This document shows positions 1,069-15,230 of a DNA stretch of 15,804 nt, piece by piece (the first letter of the stretch is position 1; each line of letters begins with the position of its first letter). A program made the position numbers and the translations under genes. The notes beneath the pieces were generated by a model. The model worked only from the letters and a program-made list of their open reading frames with translations. It was not told the DNA's origin and did no database searches. Origin of the DNA: a virus; UHGV virus genome UHGV-0041830. One strand, written 5' to 3'.

Positions 1069-1078
1069 NNNNNNNNNN
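1069..1078. other. Assembly gap (N10); flanks 835-1068 and 1079-1312 are near-identical 234-bp copies with SNPs
   Basis: Run of 10 n. Sequence after the gap restarts at a point 234 bp before the gap (ttgataccgaaaaggcctttgaatatatcgcc...) with scattered substitutions. Confidence 0.95.
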
Positions 1079-3297: not shown

Positions 3298-3307
3298 NNN
3301 NNNNNNN
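3298..3307. other. Assembly gap (N10); flanks 2988-3297 and 3308-3617 are ~310-bp near-identical copies
   Basis: Run of 10 n. Post-gap sequence agatgacggtggaaaaagcccgcccgatcctgg... repeats 2988 onward with roughly 8% substitutions. Confidence 0.95.
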
Positions 3308-8036: not shown

Positions 8037-8476
8037 ACTTTGCCCTCAGACTGGCGCGTGAGATGGGGAGACCCGACTGGCGCGCCATGCTTGCCGGGAT
8101 GACATCCACCGAATATGCCGACTGGCACCGTTTTTACCGCACGCATTATTTTCAGGATACCCAGCTGGATATGCATTTTTCCGGGCTGACGTACGCTGTA
8201 CTCAGCCTGTTTTTTTGCGATCCGGATATGCATCCCTCTGATTTCAGTCTGCTTGTCCCCCGGCATGAGGAAGAGCAGGTGGAGAGGCCGGATGAGGACA
8301 AAATGCTGATGCAGAAAGCGGCAGGACTTGCCGGAGGCGTCCGGTTCGGTGGGGACGGAGGGCGCGATATTTTATCGTCTGCGGATGTGGCGGATGTCAT
8401 GGTGGATGATGCCGCATTAATGATGGCTTCAGCGGGGATTCCGGGAGGTGTGAGATATGTCCCAGCCGGTTGGTGA
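7605..8476 (+). CDS. T: Tail assembly chaperone G-T fusion made by programmed -1 ribosomal frameshift (join 7605..8018, 8018..8476)
   Basis: Slippery site GGGAAAG at 8012-8018 with GGA and AAG as zero-frame codons. The -1 frame is open from 8018 to TGA at 8474-8476 and encodes KVFDGELNFALRLAREMGRPDWRAMLAGMTSTEYADWHRFY... Same arrangement as lambda G/T. Confidence 0.85.
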
Positions 8477-11030
8477 TCTTGTTATTGACCTGAGTCTGGA
8501 TGCTGTCCGTTTCGATGAGCAGATGAGCCGGGTAAGGCGTCATTTTTCAGGTCTGGATACCGACGCCAGAAAAACCGCCAGTGCTGTTGAACAGGGCCTG
8601 AGCCGCCAGGCGCTGGCTGCACAAAAAGCCGGGATTTCCGTCGGGCAGTATAAAGCGGCCATGCGAACCCTGCCCGCACAGTTTACGGATATCGCCACGC
8701 AGCTTGCCGGTGGTCAGAATCCCTGGTTGATCCTGCTGCAACAGGGCGGTCAGGTGAAGGACTCCTTCGGCGGGATGATCCCCATGTTCAGGGGGCTTGC
8801 CGGTGCGATCACCCTGCCGATGGTCGGGGTCACCTCGCTGGCGGTGGCGACAGGTGCGCTGGCGTACGCCTGGTACCAGGGCGACGCCACGCTTTCAGAA
8901 TTTAATAAAACGCTGGTCCTTTCCGGCAATCAGGCCGGACTGACTGCCGATCGTATGCTGACGCTCTCAAGAGCCGGGCAGGCAGCAGGGCTGACGTTTA
9001 ACCAGGCGAGAGAGTCACTGGCAGCCTTGGTGAATGCCGGTGTGCGTGGTGGTGAACAGTTTGATGCCATCAACCAGAGTGTCGCGCGTTTTGCGTCTGC
9101 ATCCGGTGTGGAGGTGGATAAAGTCGCTGAAGCCTTCGGGAAGCTGACCACTGACCCGACGTCGGGACTGATGGCGATGGCGCGCCAGTTCCGTAACGTG
9201 ACGGCAGAGCAGATTGCGTATGTTGCACAGCTGCAGCGTTCCGGAGACGAGGCCGGGGCATTGCAGGCGGCGAACGATATCGCCACGAAAGGCTTTGATG
9301 AGCAGACCCGTCGCCTGAAAGAAAACATGGGAACACTGGAGACCTGGGCGGATAAAACAGGGAAGGCATTCAAATCGATGTGGGATGCCATTCTGGATAT
9401 CGGTCGTCCGGAATCCTCAGCGGATATGCTCGCCAGTGCGCAGAAGGCATTTGATGAGGCGGATAAAAAATGGCAGTGGTACCAGAGCCGGAGCCAGCGC
9501 CGGGGAAAGACCTCCTCTTTTCGTGCGAACCTTCAGGGGGCATGGGATGACCGGGAAAATGCCCGTCTGGGTCTGGCAGCGGCCACGCTGCAGTCGGATA
9601 TGGAAAAAGCCGGTGAACTGGCGGCAAGGGACAGGGCTGAGCGTGAGTCGTCACAGCTGAAGTATACCGGAGAGGCGCAGAAGGCGTATGAGCGCCTGCA
9701 GACGCCGCTGGATAAATATACCGCCCGTCAGAAAGAGCTGAATAAGGCCCTGAAAGACGGAAAAATCCTGCAGGCGGATTACAACACGCTGATGGCGTCG
9801 GCAAAAAAGGATTATGAATCGACGCTGAAAAAGCCGTCAGGTGTGAAGGTGTCTACCGGTGAGCGCCAGGAAGACCGGGCGCATGCAGCCCTGCTGGCGC
9901 TTGAAACCGAGCTCAGGACGCTGGAAAAACACAGCGGTGTGAATGAGAAAATCAGCCAGCAGCGCCGGGATTTATGGGAAGCGGAAAGTCAGTATGTGGT
10001 CCTGAAAGAGGCCGCCACGAAACGGCAGTTATCTGAGCAGGAAAAATCCCTGCTGGCTCATGAGAAAGAGACGCTGGAGTACAAACGCCAGCTGGCTGAG
10101 CTGGGAGACAAGATTGAACACCAGAAGCGGCTGAATGAGCTGGCACAGCAGGCGGCGCGGTTTGAACAGCAGCAAAGCGCGAAGCAGGCGGCAATCAGCG
10201 CAAAAGCCCGCGGCCTCACCGACCGTCAGGCGCAGCGGGAGTCGGAAGAGCAGCGCCTTCGTGAGGTGTACGGTGATAATCCGGCTGCGCTGGCGAAGGC
10301 CACATCGGCACTGAAGAACACCTGGTCTGCGGAGGAGCAGCTTCGTGGAAGCTGGATGGCCGGGATGAAGTCCGGCTGGGGAGAGTGGGCGGAAAGTGCG
10401 ACGGACAGTTTTTCGCAGGTTAAAAGTGTGGCCACGCAGACCTTTGACGGTATTGCACAGAATATGGCGGCGATGCTGACCGGCAGCGAACAGAACTGGC
10501 GGGGATTCACCCGTTCCGTGCTGTCCATGATGACAGAAATTCTGCTTAAGCAGGCAATGGTGGGGATTGTCGGGAGTATCGGCAGCGCTATTGGCGGGGC
10601 TGTTGGTGGCGGCGCATCCGCGTCAGGCGGTACAGCCATTCAGGCCGCTGCGGCGAAATTCCATTTTGCAACCGGAGGATTTACGGGAACCGGCGGCAAA
10701 TATGAGCCAGCGGGGATTGTTCACCGTGGTGAATTTGTCTTCACAAAGGAGGCAACCAGCCGGATTGGCGTGGGGAATCTCTATCGGCTGATGCGCGGCT
10801 ATGCCACCGGTGGTTATGTCGGTACACCGGGCAGTCTGGCTGACAGCCGGTCGCAGGCGTCCGGGACGTTTGAGCAGAATAACCATGTGGTGATTAACAA
10901 CGACGGCACGAACGGGCAGATAGGTCCGGCTGCTCTGAAGGCGGTGTATGACATGGCCCGCAAGGGTGCCCGTGATGAAATCCAGGCACAGATGCGCGAT
11001 GGTGGTCTGTTCTCCGGAGGTGGACGATGA
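8457..11030 (+). CDS. H: Tail tape measure protein H
   Basis: 857 aa (lambda H 853 aa). Long near-identical runs to lambda H (PVGDLVIDLSLDA, GISVGQYKAAMR, NPWLILLQQGGQVKDSFGGMIPMFRGLAGAITLPMVG, the C-terminal glycine-rich segment GGFTGTGGKYEPAGIVHRGEFVFTKEATSRIGVGNLYRLMRGYATGGYVG). Start overlaps the T-frame end by 20 nt. Confidence 0.95.
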   Translation: MSQPVGDLVIDLSLDAVRFDEQMSRVRRHFSGLDTDARKTASAVEQGLSRQALAAQKAGISVGQYKAAMRTLPAQFTDIATQLAGGQNPWLILLQQGGQVKDSFGGMIPMFRGLAGAITLPMVGVTSLAVATGALAYAWYQGDATLSEFNKTLVLSGNQAGLTADRMLTLSRAGQAAGLTFNQARESLAALVNAGVRGGEQFDAINQSVARFASASGVEVDKVAEAFGKLTTDPTSGLMAMARQFRNVTAEQIAYVAQLQRSGDEAGALQAANDIATKGFDEQTRRLKENMGTLETWADKTGKAFKSMWDAILDIGRPESSADMLASAQKAFDEADKKWQWYQSRSQRRGKTSSFRANLQGAWDDRENARLGLAAATLQSDMEKAGELAARDRAERESSQLKYTGEAQKAYERLQTPLDKYTARQKELNKALKDGKILQADYNTLMASAKKDYESTLKKPSGVKVSTGERQEDRAHAALLALETELRTLEKHSGVNEKISQQRRDLWEAESQYVVLKEAATKRQLSEQEKSLLAHEKETLEYKRQLAELGDKIEHQKRLNELAQQAARFEQQQSAKQAAISAKARGLTDRQAQRESEEQRLREVYGDNPAALAKATSALKNTWSAEEQLRGSWMAGMKSGWGEWAESATDSFSQVKSVATQTFDGIAQNMAAMLTGSEQNWRGFTRSVLSMMTEILLKQAMVGIVGSIGSAIGGAVGGGASASGGTAIQAAAAKFHFATGGFTGTGGKYEPAGIVHRGEFVFTKEATSRIGVGNLYRLMRGYATGGYVGTPGSLADSRSQASGTFEQNNHVVINNDGTNGQIGPAALKAVYDMARKGARDEIQAQMRDGGLFSGGGR

Positions 11031-11040
11031 AAACCTTCCG

Positions 11041-11050
11041 NNNNNNNNNN
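11041..11050. other. Assembly gap (N10); flanks 10948-11040 and 11051-11143 are 93-bp near-identical copies (H 3' end and M start)
   Basis: Run of 10 n. atgacatggcccgcaagggtgcccgtgatgaaat... appears on both sides with a few substitutions. The pre-gap side already contains the H stop and an M start codon (ATG 11027). Confidence 0.95.
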
Positions 11051-11129: not shown

Positions 11130-11459
11130 ATGAAAACCTTCCGCTGGAAAGTGAAACCCGGGATGGATGTGACATCGGCTCCTTCCGTCAGGGAGGTGCG
11201 CTTTGGTGATGGCTATTCCCAGCGTGCGCCTGCCGGGCTGAACGCTGACCTGAAAACGTACAGCGTGACGCTGTCTGTCTCCCGTGAGGAGGCCACGGCG
11301 CTGGAGTCGTTTCTGGCTGAGCACGGGGGCTGGAAGGCCTTTCTGTGGACGCCGCCTTATGGTTACAGGCAGATAAAGGTGACCTGCGCAAAATGGTCGT
11401 CGCAGGTCAGTATGTTGCGTGTTGGGTTCAGCGCAGAGTTTAAACAGGTGGTGAACTGA
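11130..11459 (+). CDS. M: Tail tip protein M
   Basis: 109 aa, same length as lambda M. Start ATGA-overlaps the (duplicated) H stop. Stop TGA overlaps the L start by 1 nt. Confidence 0.9.
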   Translation: MKTFRWKVKPGMDVTSAPSVREVRFGDGYSQRAPAGLNADLKTYSVTLSVSREEATALESFLAEHGGWKAFLWTPPYGYRQIKVTCAKWSSQVSMLRVGFSAEFKQVVN

Positions 11460-12157
11460 TGCAGGATATCCGGCAGGAAACATTGAATGAATGCACCCGT
11501 GCGGAGCAGTCGGCCAGCGTGGTGCTCTGGGAAATCGATCTGACAGAGGTCGGTGGAGAACGTTATTTTTTCTGTAATGAGCAGAACGAAAAAGGTGAGC
11601 CGGTCACCTGGCAGGGGAGGCAGTATCAGGCGTATCCCATTCAGGGGAGCGGTTTTGAACTGAATGGCAAAGGCACCAGTACGCGGCCCACGCTGGCAGT
11701 CTCTAACCTGTACGGCATGGTCACCGGTATGGTGGAAGATATGCAGAGTCTGGTCGGCGGAACGGTGGTCCGGCGTAAGGTTTACGCCCGTTTTCTGGAT
11801 GCGGTGAACTTCGTCAACGGAAACAGAGACGCCGATCCGGAGCAGGAGGTGATCAGCCGCTGGCGCATCGAGCAGTGCAGCGAACTGAGTGCGGTCAGTG
11901 CCTCCTTTGTACTGTCCACACCGACGGAAACGGATGGTGCCGTTTTTCCGGGGCGCATCATGCTGGCTAATACCTGCACCTGGACCTATCGCGGTGATGA
12001 GTGCGGTTATCACGGTCCGGCAGTCGCGGATGAATATGACCAGCCGACGTCCGATATCACGAAGGATAAATGCAGCAAATGCCTGAGCGGCTGTAAGTTT
12101 CGCAATAACGTCGGCAACTTTGGCGGCTTCCTTTCCATTAACAAACTTTCGCAGTAA
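11459..12157 (+). CDS. L: Tail tip protein L (C-terminal cysteine cluster)
   Basis: 232 aa, same length as lambda L. C-terminal cysteine cluster CTWTYRGDECGYHG...CSKCLSGC. Confidence 0.9.
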   Translation: MQDIRQETLNECTRAEQSASVVLWEIDLTEVGGERYFFCNEQNEKGEPVTWQGRQYQAYPIQGSGFELNGKGTSTRPTLAVSNLYGMVTGMVEDMQSLVGGTVVRRKVYARFLDAVNFVNGNRDADPEQEVISRWRIEQCSELSAVSASFVLSTPTETDGAVFPGRIMLANTCTWTYRGDECGYHGPAVADEYDQPTSDITKDKCSKCLSGCKFRNNVGNFGGFLSINKLSQ

Positions 12158-12161
12158 TCCC

Positions 12162-12905
12162 ATGACAGAGACAGAATCAGCGATTCTGGCGCACGCCCGG
12201 CGATGTGCGCCAGCGGAGTCGTGCGGCTTCGTGGTAAGCACGCCGGAGGGGGAAAGATATTTCCCCTGCGTGAATATCTCCGGTGAGCCGGAGGCGTATT
12301 TCCGGATGGCTCCGGAGGACTGGCTGCAGGCAGAGATGCAGGGTGAGATTGTGGCGCTGGTCCACAGTCATCCCGGTGGTCTGCCCTGGCTGAGTGAGGC
12401 CGACCGGCGGCTGCAGGTGCAGAGTGATTTGCCGTGGTGGCTGGTCTGCCGGGGGGCGATTCATAAGTTCCGCTGTGTGCCGCATCTCACCGGGCGGCGC
12501 TTTGAGTACGGGGTGACAGACTGTTACACACTGTTCCGGGATGCTTACCATCTGGCGGGGATTGAGATGCCGGATTTTCATCGCGGGGATGACTGGTGGC
12601 GTCACGGTCAGAATCTCTATCTTGACAATATGGAGGCTACTGGTTTTTACCGTGTCGCACTGACAGAGGCGCAGCCGGGCGATGTGCTGCTGTGCTGTTT
12701 TGGTTCATCGGTGCCGAATCACGCCGCCATTTACTGCGGCGACGGTGAGCTGCTGCACCATATTCCTGAACAACTGAGTAAACGAGAGAGGTATACCGAC
12801 AAATGGCAGCGACGCACACACTCCCTCTGGCGTCACCGGGAATGGCACGCATCTGCCTTTACGGGGATTTGCAACGATTTGGCCGCCGCATCGACCTTCG
12901 TGTGA
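12162..12905 (+). CDS. K: Tail tip assembly protein K, JAB/MPN (JAMM) metalloprotease-like plus NlpC/P60 domains, full-length reading
   Basis: ATG at 12162 is 4 nt after the L stop, open to TGA at 12903-12905. JAMM motif HSHPGGLPWLSEAD (12364-12403) with upstream ESCG (12206-12217). Cys in VTDCYTLF and His residues downstream fit an NlpC/P60 core. The shorter reading from the internal ATG at 12306 is about 199 aa. Confidence 0.82.
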   Translation: MTETESAILAHARRCAPAESCGFVVSTPEGERYFPCVNISGEPEAYFRMAPEDWLQAEMQGEIVALVHSHPGGLPWLSEADRRLQVQSDLPWWLVCRGAIHKFRCVPHLTGRRFEYGVTDCYTLFRDAYHLAGIEMPDFHRGDDWWRHGQNLYLDNMEATGFYRVALTEAQPGDVLLCCFGSSVPNHAAIYCGDGELLHHIPEQLSKRERYTDKWQRRTHSLWRHREWHASAFTGICNDLAAASTFV

Positions 12906-13444
12906 AAACGGGGGCTGAAGCCATCCGGGCACTGGCCACACAGCTCCCGGCGTTTCGTCAGAAACTGAGCGATGGCTGGTATCAGGTACGGATTGCCGGG
13001 CGGGATGCAGGAGAAACCGAATTATCATCCCGTCTTAATGAGCCGCTGGCAAATGGTGCCGTGATCCACATCGTGCCGCGTCTTGCGGGAGCAAAAAGTG
13101 GCGGTGTGTTTCAGGCGGTGCTGGGTGCGGCGTTGATTGCTACGGCAATCTGGATGCCGGGGATCAGTATCGCTTTCAGTGACATTCTCTTTTCAATGGG
13201 TGCGGCGATGACGCTTGGTGGTGTGGCGCAGATGCTGGCACCGAAAGCCAGAACTCCCCGTACACAGACAACGGATAACGGCAAACAGAACACCTATTTC
13301 TCCTCACTGGATAACATGGTTGCCCAGGGCAATGTCCTGCCTGTTCTGTACGGTGAAATGCGCGTGGGGTCACGTGTGGCATCTCAGGAGATCAGCACGG
13401 CAGATGAAGGGGATGGTGGTCAGGTTGTGGTAATTGGGCGGTAA
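12803..13444 (+). CDS. I: Tail tip assembly protein I (variant allele), N-terminal ubiquitin-like domain ending in Gly-Gly
   Basis: 213 aa. N- and C-terminal thirds match lambda gpI. The central segment (DAGETELSSRLNEPLANG...AVLGAALIATAIWMPGISIAFSDILFSMGAAMTLGG) differs from the second copy at 14195-14775. Overlaps K by 103 nt. An alternative start at ATG 12842 is possible. Confidence 0.85.
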   Translation: MAATHTLPLASPGMARICLYGDLQRFGRRIDLRVKTGAEAIRALATQLPAFRQKLSDGWYQVRIAGRDAGETELSSRLNEPLANGAVIHIVPRLAGAKSGGVFQAVLGAALIATAIWMPGISIAFSDILFSMGAAMTLGGVAQMLAPKARTPRTQTTDNGKQNTYFSSLDNMVAQGNVLPVLYGEMRVGSRVASQEISTADEGDGGQVVVIGR

Positions 13445-13517
13445 TATTATTTTACTCATGTTCTAACTAATTTAATATTTATATCGAACACTGATAATTA
13501 TTCTATTGGTTAGCTAT
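13445..13517 (+). promoter_or_regulatory. AT-rich putative promoter/leader of the inserted lipoprotein gene
   Basis: Extremely AT-rich 73 bp. Candidate -35 TTTAAT (13471-13476) and -10 GATAAT (13493-13498) with 16-bp spacer. Weak, unvalidated prediction. Confidence 0.3.
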
Positions 13518-13856
13518 ATGAACAAAACGATTTTATTCTGCACGATTATTGCCTTAACAGGATGTAAATCTTTGGATTACGTAAAATCCGGAAAACCTGT
13601 AATGGAAGGTAATTCATTAAAAAATATTGATGAATTGTCAGGCTGCATATCCAGACAATGGGCTGGTAATGGAACACCTATAACATCCCTTCCTATTGAG
13701 AATGGGGTAAGCCTTTTAGTTCCACAGGCTATGGGGGGATATGATGTTGTGCTTGATATCAAAAAAGCAGGAAATGGCAGTAGTTTTACTCTTTATGAAC
13801 GTGTACCAGCATTAACGCCAAAAATTTTTGCTGATAGTGTTAATGCATGTAAATAA
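13518..13856 (+). CDS. Predicted outer-membrane lipoprotein of unknown function (moron inserted between tail genes I and J)
   Basis: 112 aa. N-terminus MNKTILFCTIIALTG|CKS is a textbook signal peptidase II signal: basic n-region, hydrophobic core, lipobox L-T-G-C, and Lys (not Asp) at +2 after the lipidated Cys. Two further Cys residues. Tandem TAA TAG stops. ~36% GC against GC-rich flanks. Start could alternatively be TTG 13506. Confidence 0.75.
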   Translation: MNKTILFCTIIALTGCKSLDYVKSGKPVMEGNSLKNIDELSGCISRQWAGNGTPITSLPIENGVSLLVPQAMGGYDVVLDIKKAGNGSSFTLYERVPALTPKIFADSVNACK

Positions 13857-13880
13857 TAGTTAATCCTGTCGTAACTCATG

Positions 13881-13908
13881 AGCCGCCTTTTGGGCGGCTT
13901 TGTTGTTT
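13881..13908 (+). terminator. GC hairpin plus T-tract between the moron and J (conserved in the second I-J junction)
   Basis: AGCCGCC (13881-13887), loop TTTTG, GGCGGCT (13893-13899), then TTGTTGTTT. Lies 14 nt upstream of the J ATG. Confidence 0.45.
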
Positions 13909-14184: not shown

Positions 14185-14194
14185 NNNNNNNNNN
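14185..14194. other. Assembly gap (N10) joining a segment ending in J to a segment beginning inside the K/I overlap
   Basis: Run of 10 n. Post-gap sequence accttcgtgtgaaaacgggggctgaagcc... corresponds to 12894 onward, so this is not a simple overlap: the following segment is an alternative copy of the I-J locus. Confidence 0.95.
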
Positions 14195-14775
14195 ACCTTC
14201 GTGTGAAAACGGGGGCTGAAGCCATCCGCGCACTGGCCACACAGCTCCCGGTGTTTCGTCAGAAACTGAGCGACGGCTGGTATCAGGTACGGATTGCCGG
14301 GCGGGACGTCAGCACGTCCGGGTTAACGGCGCAGTTACATGAGACTCTGCCTGATGGCGCTGTGATTCATATTGTTCCCAGAGTCGCCGGGGCCAAGTCA
14401 GGTGGCGTATTCCAGATTGTCCTGGGGGCTGCCGCCATTGCCGGATCATTCTTTACCGCCGGAGCCACCCTTGCAGCATGGGGGGCAGCCATTGGGGCCG
14501 GTGGTATGACCGGCATCCTGTTTTCTCTCGGTGCCAGTATGGTGCTCGGTGGTGTGGCGCAGATGCTGGCACCGAAAGCCAGAACTCCCCGTACACAGAC
14601 AACGGATAACGGCAAACAGAACACCTATTTCTCCTCACTGGATAACATGGTTGCCCAGGGCAATGTTCTGCCGGTTCTGTACGGTGAAATGCGCGTGGGG
14701 TCACGCGTGGTTTCTCAGGAGATCAGCACGGCAGACGAAGGGGATGGTGGTCAGGTTGTGGTGATTGGTCGCTGA
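14195..14775 (+). CDS. I: Tail tip assembly protein I (lambda-like allele), 5'-truncated by gap
   Basis: Codon boundary at 14197, stop TGA 14773-14775. Central segment DVSTSGLTAQLHETLPDGAVIHIVPRVAGAKSGGVFQIVLGAAAIAGSFFTAGATLAAWGAAIGAGGMTGILFSLGASMVLGG matches lambda gpI as I recall it. Confidence 0.88.
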
Positions 14776-14793
14776 TGCAAAATGTTTTATGTG

Positions 14794-14820
14794 AAACCGC
14801 CTCCGGGCGGTTTTATCGTT
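14794..14820 (+). terminator. GC hairpin plus T-tract upstream of J (second copy)
   Basis: AAACCGCC (14794-14801), loop TCCG, GGCGGTTT (14806-14813), perfect 8-bp stem followed by TATCGTTT. Same position relative to the J start as 13881-13908. Confidence 0.45.
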
Positions 14821-14835
14821 TATGGAGCATGAGGA

Positions 14836-15220
14836 ATGGGTAAAGGCAGCAGTAAGGGGCATACCCCGCGCGAAGCGAAGGACAACCTGAAATCATCCCA
14901 GATGCTGAGCGTGATAGACGCCATCAGCGAAGGGCCGGTTGAAGGTCCGGTGGATGGATTAAAAAGCGTGCTGCTGAACAGTACGCCGGTGCTGGACAGT
15001 GAGGGGAATACCAATATATTCGGCGTCACGGTGGTGTTCCGGGCCGGTGAGCAGGAGCAGACTCCGCCGGAGGGATTTGAATCCTCCGGCTCCGAGACGG
15101 TGCTGGGTACGGAAGTGAAATATGACACGCCGATCACCCGGACCATCACGTCGGCAAACATCGACCGTCTGCGCTTTACCTTCGGTGTGCAGGCACTGGT
15201 GGAAACCACCTCAAAGGGGG
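14836..15220 (+). CDS. J: Tail tip attachment protein J, N-terminal part (copy 2, pre-gap)
   Basis: Near-identical to 13923-14184 and to the lambda J N-terminus. Continues ...TVLGTEVKYDTPITRTITSANIDRLRFTFGVQALVETTSKG. Confidence 0.92.
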
Positions 15221-15230
15221 NNNNNNNNNN
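15221..15230. other. Assembly gap (N10); flanks 15128-15220 and 15231-15323 are 93-bp near-identical copies within J
   Basis: Run of 10 n. cgccgatcacccggaccatcacgtcggcaaacat... is present on both sides with substitutions. Confidence 0.95.

What the first reader, a model, noticed from the sequence alone, without database searches (positions are those of the whole stretch)
12162..12905. gpK reads as a full 247-aa JAB/MPN + NlpC/P60 protein only if started directly after L; the internal ATG at 12306 would truncate the JAMM domain
The frame is open from ATG 12162 (4 nt after the L stop) to 12905. The JAMM signature needs an upstream Glu followed by HxH-x7-S-xx-D. Here the upstream element is ESCG at 12206-12217 and the core is HSHPGGLPWLSEAD at 12364-12403. 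The alternative start at 12306 (MAPEDW...) gives a 199-aa product, which is the length I recall for lambda K in reference annotations (unverified here), and lies after the ESCG element. The sequence therefore favours the longer product, with L-K translational coupling.
Basis: partly seen in the sequence, partly recalled or inferred. Interest (0 to 1): 0.45.

Follow-up and report, generated by a model that had tools for sequence, protein, structure and literature searches.

The report
Full-length lambda-type tail protein K
The phage tail-assembly gene K here does encode a 247-residue two-peptidase protein that starts right after gene L; this is ordinary and already annotated that way, and the textbook 199-residue lambda K comes from one base missing in the 1982 lambda reference sequence.

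Summary
ATG 12162 lies 4 nt after the L stop and opens a 247-aa frame to TGA 12905. ATG 12306 gives 199 aa. Two motif coordinates were misplaced: ESCG is 12216-12227 and HSH..D is 12363-12404.

- Only the long form passes Pfam Prok-JAB (52.2 bits against 22.9; cut-off 25).
- In 66 homologs of 34-60% identity, E19, G22, N38 and F47 are (near-)invariant, while M49 is Met in only 10.
- Distant homologs start level with residue 1.
- An AlphaFold model (pLDDT 97) places residues 1-48 as the first helix and hairpin of an MPN fold matching P. furiosus JAMM1.

RefSeq already annotates this exact protein at 247 aa. The JAB + NlpC/P60 architecture was published in 2006, and cleavage of gpI by gpK was reported at a 2025 meeting.

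One addition: lambda's 199-aa K is not a start-codon choice. J02459/NC_001416 lack one G (GGAGGC^TATTTCC) that all 22 other lambda-identical records examined, bar one (OR974322), carry, and this breaks the frame. Gene callers also often pick the internal ATG, because it has a strong GGAGG and the true start has none.

Verdict: real, correct, already known, low interest.

The parts
12162..12905 (+). Gene K, full-length ORF (247 aa plus stop): tail tip assembly protein K, a JAB/MPN+ plus NlpC/P60 two-domain peptidase
   Evidence: ORF confirmed. Both Pfam domains score above their cut-offs. The protein is identical to RefSeq WP_000140762.1 'C40 family peptidase', annotated at 247 aa in E. coli ATCC 11775. 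The exact sequence is on at least 999 contigs.
12155..12164 (+). L stop (TAA 12155-12157), 4-nt spacer, K start (ATG 12162-12164): the presumed site of termination-reinitiation coupling
   Evidence: Sequence. There is no anti-SD pairing upstream (+0.7 kcal/mol). A 4-5 nt spacer with no SD is seen in all E. coli-type relatives examined, and 11 nt in Citrobacter. Coupling itself is inferred.
12162..12476 (+). JAB/MPN+ (JAMM) metalloprotease domain, residues ~1-105
   Evidence: Pfam PF14464 matches residues 4-98 (profile 4-103/114) at 52.2 bits. PDB profile hits 2kks, 2kcq and 5lda start at profile positions 3-16. The AF2 model shows helix 3-15, strands 21-27, 30-36, 62-69, 92-96 and 99-103, and helices 51-60 and 79-88. 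Foldseek matches PfJAMM1 5ld9 with TMt 0.66 and rmsd 2.6.
12216..12227 (+). E19-S-C-G: the upstream catalytic Glu element of the JAMM motif, lost in the 199-aa form
   Evidence: Coordinates. E19 is present in 65/66, C21 in 63/66 and G22 in 66/66 homologs.
12363..12404 (+). H68-S-H70-x7-S78-x2-D81: the JAMM zinc-binding core
   Evidence: Coordinates. H68, H70 and D81 are invariant (66/66); S78 is in 63/66, with Thr in the other 3. The motif definition EXnHS/THX7SXXD is from PMC300881.
12290..12308 (+). Internal GGAGG (12290-12294) and ATG 12306 (M49): the site that attracts gene callers and gives the 199-aa call
   Evidence: Anti-SD duplex of -9.5 kcal/mol with 11-nt spacing. M49 is Met in only 10/66 distant and 24/54 close homologs, and is mostly Ile otherwise. 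The 199-aa calls P0073 and P0058 come from contigs whose upstream frame is open. The single G missing from the lambda reference falls in this GGAGGCG.
12483..12839 (+). NlpC/P60 (C40) papain-like peptidase domain, residues ~108-226. Catalytic candidates: C121 (12522-12524), H187 (12720-12722), H199 (12756-12758)
   Evidence: Pfam PF00877 matches residues 111-224 (profile 1-105/105) at 49.2 bits. C121, H187 and H199 are each present in 65/66 homologs. Foldseek matches MepS/Spr 8xud, 7v6s and 2k1g with TMt 0.58-0.69.
12803..13444 (+). Gene I (tail assembly protein I, N-terminal ubiquitin-like domain): the likely substrate of K. It overlaps the 3' end of K.
   Evidence: Pfam PF06805 Lambda_tail_I matches residues 14-97 at 85.1 bits. 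The K-cleaves-I hypothesis is from PMC1779556. A report of experimental support is in PMC12908700.

Best explanation
Window 12162-12905 is the lambdoid-prophage gene K, and its functional product is the 247-aa protein that starts at ATG 12162.

The protein has two peptidase domains:
- An N-terminal JAB/MPN+ zinc metalloprotease with E19, H68, H70, S78 and D81.
- A C-terminal NlpC/P60 cysteine peptidase with C121, H187 and H199.

The ATG has no Shine-Dalgarno sequence and sits 4 nt after the L stop. Initiation is therefore most likely by ribosomes that have just terminated on L (termination-reinitiation coupling). This step is inferred.

From the literature on lambda: the protein is an assembly factor that is absent from the virion. 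Its JAB domain removes the ubiquitin-like N-terminal domain of the neighbouring gene product gpI during tail-tip assembly. That activity was not tested here.

The 199-aa 'K' of the lambda reference is an artefact. J02459/NC_001416 lack one G in GGAGGCG, just upstream of the internal ATG, which puts the first 45 codons in another frame. With the G restored, lambda K is also 247 aa.
For: Shown here:
- The ORF and the JAMM motif are present.
- Prok-JAB scores 52.2 bits over profile positions 4-103 for the long form. The short form scores 22.9 bits, below the cut-off of 25, over profile positions 63-103 only.
- 2800 representative homologs were found. Full-length homologs at 36-61% identity are 221-281 aa and collinear from their N-termini.
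- E19, G22, N38 and F47 in the first 48 residues are invariant or nearly so, while M49 is not conserved.
- dN/dS of codons 1-48 is 0.36, indicating purifying selection; the rest of the gene gives 0.15.
- The AF2 model has pLDDT 97.1 and pTM 0.91. Residues 1-48 form helix 3-15 and the 21-27/30-36 hairpin of the MPN fold.
- Foldseek matches PfJAMM1 (5ld9/5lda, the latter in complex with the Ub-like SAMP2) and MepS.
- PDB profile hits start at profile position 3.
- RefSeq annotates the identical protein at 247 aa.

Lambda reference error:
- All 22 other lambda-identical records checked carry the extra G and an open K frame. These include LC730321 (48,503 bp), PV340536, KT232076, DE3, imm434 and 17 contigs in unrelated genome assemblies.
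- The ORF is a complete 247 aa in the 18 records where it fits on the contig; four short contigs end inside the still-open frame.
- J02459 and NC_001416 lack the G, as does OR974322, the only other lambda-identical record that lacks it.

Literature:
- The TAPK architecture of JAB + NlpC/P60, and the prediction that it processes the Ub-like TAPI, are in PMC1779556.
- A Davidson-lab talk reported that gpK cleaves the Ub-like domain off gpI (PMC12908700).
- Only gpI residues 134/135-222/223 are resolved in the cryo-EM maps. gpK was unresolved in both studies and undetected by mass spectrometry in one of them (PMC10721106; PMC12617516).
Against: - There is no direct evidence here, such as N-terminal peptides or initiation-site profiling, for where translation starts in this prophage.
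- The true start has no SD, while the internal ATG 12306 has a strong GGAGG 11 nt upstream. Some internal initiation cannot be excluded.
- The dN/dS estimate for codons 1-48 rests on very few substitutions (0-12 differing codons per pair).
- Coupling to L is inferred from spacing alone.
- Enzymatic activity of either domain was not tested, and the gpI-cleavage evidence is a meeting report rather than a paper I could read.
Confidence: 0.9

Rival explanations
1. The 199-aa protein from ATG 12306 is the real product, or an additional physiological one. It would be made by independent initiation at the strong internal GGAGG and would be a NlpC/P60-only peptidase carrying a JAB remnant.
For: - GGAGG at 12290-12294 pairs with the anti-SD at -9.5 kcal/mol. 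This is the only good SD among the in-frame starts.
- The GGAGG..ATG arrangement is kept in all E. coli-type DNA relatives examined.
- Gene callers and several depositors choose this start.
- Iyer et al. note phage TAPK versions with only the NlpC/P60 domain.
Against: - The SD-to-ATG spacing is 11 nt, longer than optimal.
- M49 is Met in only 10/66 distant and 24/54 close homologs, and Ile is commoner, so the start is not a family feature.
- The GGAGG is embedded in the conserved codons G-E-P-E-(A/E/D), so its conservation is explained by the protein sequence.
- The short form would keep the zinc ligands but lose the catalytic Glu, helix 1 and the first hairpin of the MPN fold. That makes a folded JAB remnant unlikely.
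- Its only historical support, lambda's 199-aa annotation, is a frameshift artefact.
Confidence: 0.08
2. K starts further upstream at TTG 12120 (261 aa), overlapping the end of L.
For: The frame is open from 12087, and TTG 12120 is the first start codon in it.
Against: - TTG 12120 has no SD (-1.7 kcal/mol).
- In lambda and most relatives the L-K spacer is 5 nt rather than 4, so the K frame has a stop 7 codons before the ATG (QTFAVNPM...). No equivalent start exists there.
- Distant homologs have a median of about 20 residues before the catalytic Glu, which matches the 18 residues given by ATG 12162.
Confidence: 0.01
3. The region 12162-12305 is a non-coding L-K spacer, or a separate small ORF as the lambda reference implies. 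Its match to JAB N-termini would then be a decayed remnant.
For: - Lambda J02459/NC_001416 show a 148-nt gap between L and K, and the frame there is broken.
- Iyer et al. suggested that NlpC-only versions may be degenerate variants typical of prophages.
Against: - In this window the frame is intact.
- The catalytic and structural residues are all present and conserved.
- dN/dS is below 1.
- Every other lambda-identical record checked except OR974322 also has an intact frame.
Confidence: 0.01

Closest known systems
Bacteriophage lambda tail tip assembly protein K (gpK; UniProt TIPK_LAMBD, GenBank AAA96551, NP_040598)
   Same: - Same position in the H-M-L-K-I-J tail module.
- About 94% amino-acid identity over all 247 residues to lambda K as read from resequenced lambda genomes.
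- Same JAB + NlpC/P60 architecture, and the same SD-less ATG just after the L stop.
   Different: - The database lambda entry is 199 aa, because the 1982 reference lacks one G. This window has the intact frame.
- The L-K spacer is 4 nt here against 5 nt in lambda.
- There are 16 amino-acid substitutions relative to lambda.
- The neighbouring I allele differs (213 against 223 aa), and a low-GC lipoprotein gene sits between I and J here.
TAPK family as defined by Iyer, Burroughs & Aravind 2006 (PMC1779556): phage tail assembly proteins with JAB + NlpC/P60 domains next to the ubiquitin-like TAPI
   Same: Domain order, the neighbourhood with a Ub-like TAPI and with TAPJ, and conserved catalytic residues in both domains.
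   Different: Nothing substantive; this is a typical member.
Archaeal JAMM1 desampylases (Pyrococcus furiosus JAMM1, PDB 5ld9/5lda) and bacterial stand-alone Prok-JAB proteins (PDB 2kks, 2kcq)
   Same: MPN+ fold with the E...HxH-x7-S-xx-D zinc site. The K N-domain model superposes on 5ld9 with TMt 0.66 and rmsd 2.6 A. 5lda shows the enzyme bound to a ubiquitin-like protein, which is the reaction type proposed for K on gpI.
   Different: - Only 22-25% identity.
- Those proteins are stand-alone enzymes acting on conjugated or linear SAMPs, whereas K is fused to an NlpC/P60 domain and acts in virion assembly.
- The NCBIfam desampylase model scores only 29.8 bits against a cut-off of 130, so K is not an equivalog.
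NlpC/P60 (C40) peptidoglycan endopeptidases such as E. coli MepS/Spr (PDB 2k1g, 7v6s, 8xud)
   Same: Papain-like fold and a Cys-His-His triad. TMt is 0.58-0.69 to the K C-domain, and Pfam PF00877 scores above its cut-off.
   Different: - 15-20% identity.
- K has no signal peptide and, in lambda, is absent from the virion, so a cell-wall substrate is doubtful. Its substrate is unknown.
- The RefSeq name 'C40 family peptidase' describes only half of the protein.

Membership tests
JAB/MPN+ (JAMM) metalloproteases, Pfam PF14464 Prok-JAB | Profile match above the curated gathering score over most of the domain | tested here: met
   The 247-aa form scores 52.2 bits against a cut-off of 25, over profile positions 4-103/114. 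The 199-aa form scores 22.9 bits, below the cut-off, over profile positions 63-103 only.
JAB/MPN+ (JAMM) metalloproteases, Pfam PF14464 Prok-JAB | JAMM motif E-x(n)-H-S/T-H-x7-S-x2-D (definition from PMC300881) | tested here: met
   E19, H68-S69-H70, S78 and D81 are present at the exact spacing. They are conserved in 63-66 of 66 homologs.
JAB/MPN+ (JAMM) metalloproteases, Pfam PF14464 Prok-JAB | MPN fold | tested here: met
   The AF2 model has pLDDT 97.1. Foldseek matches 5ld9/5lda JAMM1 (TMt 0.66, rmsd 2.5-2.6), 2kks, AMSH, Rpn11 and CSN5. This is a predicted structure, not an experimental one.
JAB/MPN+ (JAMM) metalloproteases, Pfam PF14464 Prok-JAB | Zinc binding and (iso)peptidase activity on a ubiquitin-like substrate | not testable with these tools
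   Only literature is available: predicted in PMC1779556, and reported orally for lambda gpK acting on gpI (PMC12908700).
NlpC/P60 (MEROPS C40) peptidases, Pfam PF00877 | Profile match above the gathering score | tested here: met
   49.2 bits against a cut-off of 23, over profile positions 1-105/105 and residues 111-224.
NlpC/P60 (MEROPS C40) peptidases, Pfam PF00877 | Catalytic Cys and His plus a third polar residue (His), on a papain-like fold | tested here: met
   C121, H187 and H199 are each conserved in 65/66 homologs. The fold matches MepS, LytE and CwlO. Assignment of these residues as the triad follows the family pattern (DCxxL, NHxxIY, LHH) and is an inference.
Lambda-type tail tip assembly protein K (TAPK) | Gene order L - K - I - J in a siphophage tail module | tested here: met
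   Pfam assigns Phage_tail_L to 11459-12157 and Lambda_tail_I to 12803-13444. The same order is annotated in ATCC 11775 and in lambda.
Lambda-type tail tip assembly protein K (TAPK) | Close sequence similarity to lambda K over its whole length | tested here: met
   tblastn gives 94% identity over residues 1-247 to lambda-identical contigs. The pairwise alignment is. phrog_30 'minor tail protein' matches at E = 4e-163.
Lambda-type tail tip assembly protein K (TAPK) | Required for tail assembly but absent from the mature virion | not testable with these tools
   For lambda only: gpK was not detected by mass spectrometry of virions (PMC10721106) and is required for assembly (PMC12617516).

The most novel reading that the evidence does not exclude
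Gene K may make two products from one frame. The first would be the full 247-aa JAB + NlpC/P60 enzyme, made by coupling to L. The second would be a 199-aa NlpC/P60-only isoform, made by independent initiation at the strong internal GGAGG/ATG 12306. The ratio of the two would tune tail-tip assembly in E. coli lambdoid phages. The conserved GGAGG-N11-ATG in all E. coli-type relatives does not exclude this. The lack of a Met at this position in about half of close relatives and most distant ones argues that it is not a general feature.
Probability: 0.07. Interest if true: 0.35.

Novelty: already known. Interest (0 to 1): 0.12.

Why it matters
For this window it matters very little. RefSeq already annotates the identical protein at 247 aa, and the two-domain architecture has been in the literature since 2006.

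The practical value is a caution about annotation:
- The lambda reference records (J02459, NC_001416) and UniProt TIPK_LAMBD still carry a 199-aa K. That form lacks the catalytic Glu and the first third of the JAB domain.
- The cause is a single missing G in the 1982 sequence.
- About one in six of the near-identical sequences in the clusters listed are also called at the internal ATG. Roughly 11,000 members belong to 199-aa clusters, against roughly 51,000 in 247-aa clusters.
- Analyses based on the short form miss the deubiquitinase-like domain. A 2020 review found only 'a peptidase domain, residues 52-182 of 199' (PMC7291167).

Tried and rejected
- **Single-sequence AlphaFold run.** It gave a useless model (pLDDT 35.6), so I repeated it with alignment A1.
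- **Programmed frameshift in lambda K.** I considered this to explain the out-of-frame N-terminus in the reference. I rejected it because every other lambda-identical record checked except OR974322 has the extra G and a plain open frame, and there is no slippery heptamer at the site.
- **TTG 12120 as the start.** Rejected because it is not conserved; relatives with a 5-nt spacer have a stop 7 codons upstream of the ATG.
- **GTG 12231 and GTG 12270 as starts.** Both lie after E19 and would also truncate the domain. Their SD pairing is weak to moderate.
- **Literature searches for a published note on the missing G**. None found one in the searchable library. Casjens & Hendrix 2015 is not held. 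From memory, unverified: resequencing pipelines routinely report '+G at about 14266' against NC_001416.
- **NCBIfam.** No family-level model passed its cut-off; desampylase scored 29.8 against 130.
- **dN/dS on codons 1-48.** It is below 1, but it rests on too few changes to carry weight by itself.

Full report
**1. What is in the sequence**

The window is the tail-gene region of an E. coli lambdoid prophage. It is 99.3% identical to prophages in ATCC 11775, NU14 and other strains, and related sequence occurs in 4412 of 5426 complete E. coli genomes.

The genes in this region are H (8457-11030), M (11130-11459), L (11459-12157), K (12162-12905) and I (12803-13444).

- The L stop TAA is at 12155-12157, and ATG 12162 follows after a 4-nt spacer.
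- The frame runs to TGA 12903-12905, giving 247 aa.
- The in-frame ATG 12306 gives 199 aa.
HSHPGGLPWLSEAD is at 12363-12404.
- K lies entirely within one N-free piece of the window.

**2. Does the protein need the first 48 residues?**

Yes, by every test I could run.

- **Pfam.** The 247-aa form matches Prok-JAB (PF14464) over profile positions 4-103 of 114 at 52.2 bits (cut-off 25), and NLPC_P60 at 49.2 bits. The 199-aa form keeps NLPC_P60, but its JAB match shrinks to profile positions 63-103 and 22.9 bits, below the cut-off.
- **Distant homologs.** A full HMMER scan of 1.84 billion representatives found 2800 relatives. Full-length relatives at 36-61% identity are 221-281 aa long. Their alignments run from query residues ~3-10 to their own residues ~3-15, so their N-termini coincide with ATG 12162.
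- **Conservation.** In a 66-sequence alignment (34-60% identity to the query), residues 11-48 are as conserved as residues 49-105 (mean top-residue frequency 0.46 for both). E19 is present in 65/66, C21 in 63/66, G22 in 66/66, N38 in 66/66 and F47 in 65/66.
- **The internal Met.** M49 is Met in only 10/66 and Ile in 40. Among closer enterobacterial relatives it is Met in 24 and Ile in 22.
- **dN/dS.** Among eleven 247-codon sequences (55 pairs; nine distinct relatives plus the window and L001), dN/dS is 0.36 for codons 1-48 and 0.15 for the rest. Both indicate purifying selection, but the first figure rests on few changes.
- **Solved structures.** A profile of the alignment hits the solved bacterial MPN proteins 2kks and 2kcq from profile position 3, and P. 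furiosus JAMM1 from position 16.
- **Predicted structure.** An AlphaFold2 model built on the alignment is very confident (pLDDT 97.1, pTM 0.91). It places residues 1-48 as helix 3-15 plus the β-hairpin 21-27/30-36, which carries E19.
- **Fold search.** Foldseek matches the N-terminal half to PfJAMM1 (5ld9/5lda, TMt 0.66, rmsd about 2.6 Å; 5lda is the complex with the ubiquitin-like SAMP2). It matches the C-terminal half to MepS/Spr-type NlpC/P60 enzymes (TMt 0.58-0.69).
- **NlpC/P60 residues.** The candidates C121, H187 and H199 are each conserved in 65/66 homologs.

**3. Where translation starts**

ATG 12162 has no Shine-Dalgarno (anti-SD duplex +0.7 kcal/mol). ATG 12306 has a GGAGG at 12290-12294 (-9.5 kcal/mol), although it lies 11 nt upstream.

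The SD-less ATG 4-5 nt after the L stop is the same in all E. coli-type relatives examined; the spacer is 11 nt in a Citrobacter relative. Termination-reinitiation coupling to L is therefore the most economical reading, but it is inferred, not shown.

TTG 12120 is not a credible start. In relatives with a 5-nt spacer, the K frame has a stop 7 codons before the ATG.

The strong internal SD explains a recurrent annotation artefact. Several large clusters of near-identical proteins are called at 199 aa: P0058, P0062, P0066 and P0073, about 11,000 members in all, against about 51,000 in 247-aa clusters. In the two contigs I inspected, the upstream frame is open all the way to the ATG after L.

**4. 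Why lambda K is '199 aa'**

J02459 and NC_001416 annotate K at 14276..14875, and UniProt TIPK_LAMBD is 199 aa. The reason is not a choice between two ATGs.

- In the reference, the sequence after L (ATG 14133, MTQTESAILAHARRCAPAESCGF...) is in a different frame from K. There is a K-frame stop at 14255.
- The reference reads GGAGGC-TATTTCC where this window reads GGAGGCGTATTTCC.
- All 22 other records I examined whose first 133 nt of K are identical to lambda carry the extra G and have an open K frame. The ORF is a complete 247 aa in the 18 records where it fits on the contig.
- These records include LC730321 (48,503 bp, one base longer than the reference), PV340536, KT232076, DE3, lambda imm434, and 17 contigs in GTDB assemblies. 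Several of those contigs are about 48.4-48.5 kb long and sit in assemblies of unrelated bacteria; I take them to be lambda control-DNA carry-over.
- Only J02459, NC_001416 and OR974322 lack the G. I suspect that OR974322 is reference-guided.
- The 199-aa lambda K is thus most simply a one-base omission in the 1982 sequence.
- Some depositors whose own sequence has the G still copy the 199-aa start (DE3, imm434). Others annotate 247 aa (PV340536; PGAP on E. coli).
- I found no published note of this in the searchable library.

**5. What it does**

None of the following was tested here.

- Ambroggio et al. listed lambda K as a JAMM-motif protein of unknown function (PMC300881).
- Iyer, Burroughs and Aravind described the family (TAPK) as JAB + NlpC/P60 next to a ubiquitin-like TAPI. 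They predicted that K releases the Ub-like domain by cutting at its C-terminal glycine (PMC1779556).
- Two cryo-EM studies resolve only gpI residues about 134-223 in the virion, and neither resolves gpK. In one of them, mass spectrometry of virions did not detect gpK (PMC10721106; PMC12617516).
- A 2025 meeting report states that the Davidson laboratory showed gpK cleaves the Ub-like domain off gpI after gpI has joined the tail-tip complex (PMC12908700).
- A 2020 review that used the 199-aa sequence saw only 'a peptidase domain' (PMC7291167). This illustrates the cost of the truncated entry.

The most likely mechanism for this window's K is therefore as follows. The full-length enzyme is made in step with L. 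Its JAB domain (E19 as general base; H68, H70 and D81 binding zinc) removes the N-terminal β-grasp domain of the I product during tail-tip assembly. The role of the NlpC/P60 domain is still unknown.

**6. Verdict**

The feature is an ordinary, already correctly annotated member of a known family: WP_000140762.1, whose exact sequence is on at least 999 contigs.

The only reading with any novelty is dual expression from the internal SD/ATG. The non-conservation of M49 makes that unlikely. Interest is low.

Noticed in passing
L002/L003 (lambda NC_001416/J02459) record position ~14262-14266, equivalent to window 12290-12297: The lambda reference lacks one G in GGAGGCG that is present in all 22 other lambda-identical records examined (OR974322 lacks it too). 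This splits the 247-aa K into a 76-codon ORF and the annotated 199-aa K. RefSeq NP_040598 and UniProt TIPK_LAMBD still carry the short form.
   Followed up: yes
window 12803-12904 (5' end of gene I, overlapping K): Gene I has the same kind of start-site problem as K. The Pfam Lambda_tail_I (ubiquitin-like) domain is complete only from ATG 12842 or ATG 12803 (85 bits, profile 2-83). PGAP's start in ATCC 11775, equivalent to TTG 12869, loses profile positions 1-14 (71 bits). The GTG 12902 start used by other annotators loses positions 1-25 (54 bits).
   Followed up: partly
window 1069-1078, 3298-3307, 11041-11050, 14185-14194, 15221-15230: There are five runs of exactly 10 N. Each is flanked by a 93-300 nt stretch that is repeated on the other side at 92-97% identity. 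The window is therefore a chain of overlapping contigs from related prophages rather than one continuous molecule. For example, a second, lambda-type copy of gene I follows at 14195-14775.
   Followed up: partly
window 13445-13900 (ORF 13518-13856, + strand): A low-GC island (33-40% against about 56% around it) sits between I and J. It encodes a 112-aa protein with a lipoprotein-type signal (MNKTILFCTIIALTGC...). It has no Pfam hit, matches phrog_914 of unknown function, and is annotated as hypothetical in ATCC 11775. It looks like a moron, possibly for surface or receptor modification.
   Followed up: partly
L012-L024 and others (GTDB genome contigs): Many assemblies of unrelated bacteria contain low-coverage contigs identical to phage lambda, some about 48.4-48.5 kb long. 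Examples are Shewanella, Pseudomonas, Neobacillus, Bradyrhizobium, Leeuwenhoekiella and Chromatium. I take this to be control-DNA contamination in public genomes.
   Followed up: no
L046, L047, L048 (E. coli ECMA0423 and Shigella flexneri SFBU1023 chromosomes): Some prophage copies of K are genuinely broken by frameshifts or stops within the first 50-140 codons. These are decayed K genes in cryptic prophages.
   Followed up: no
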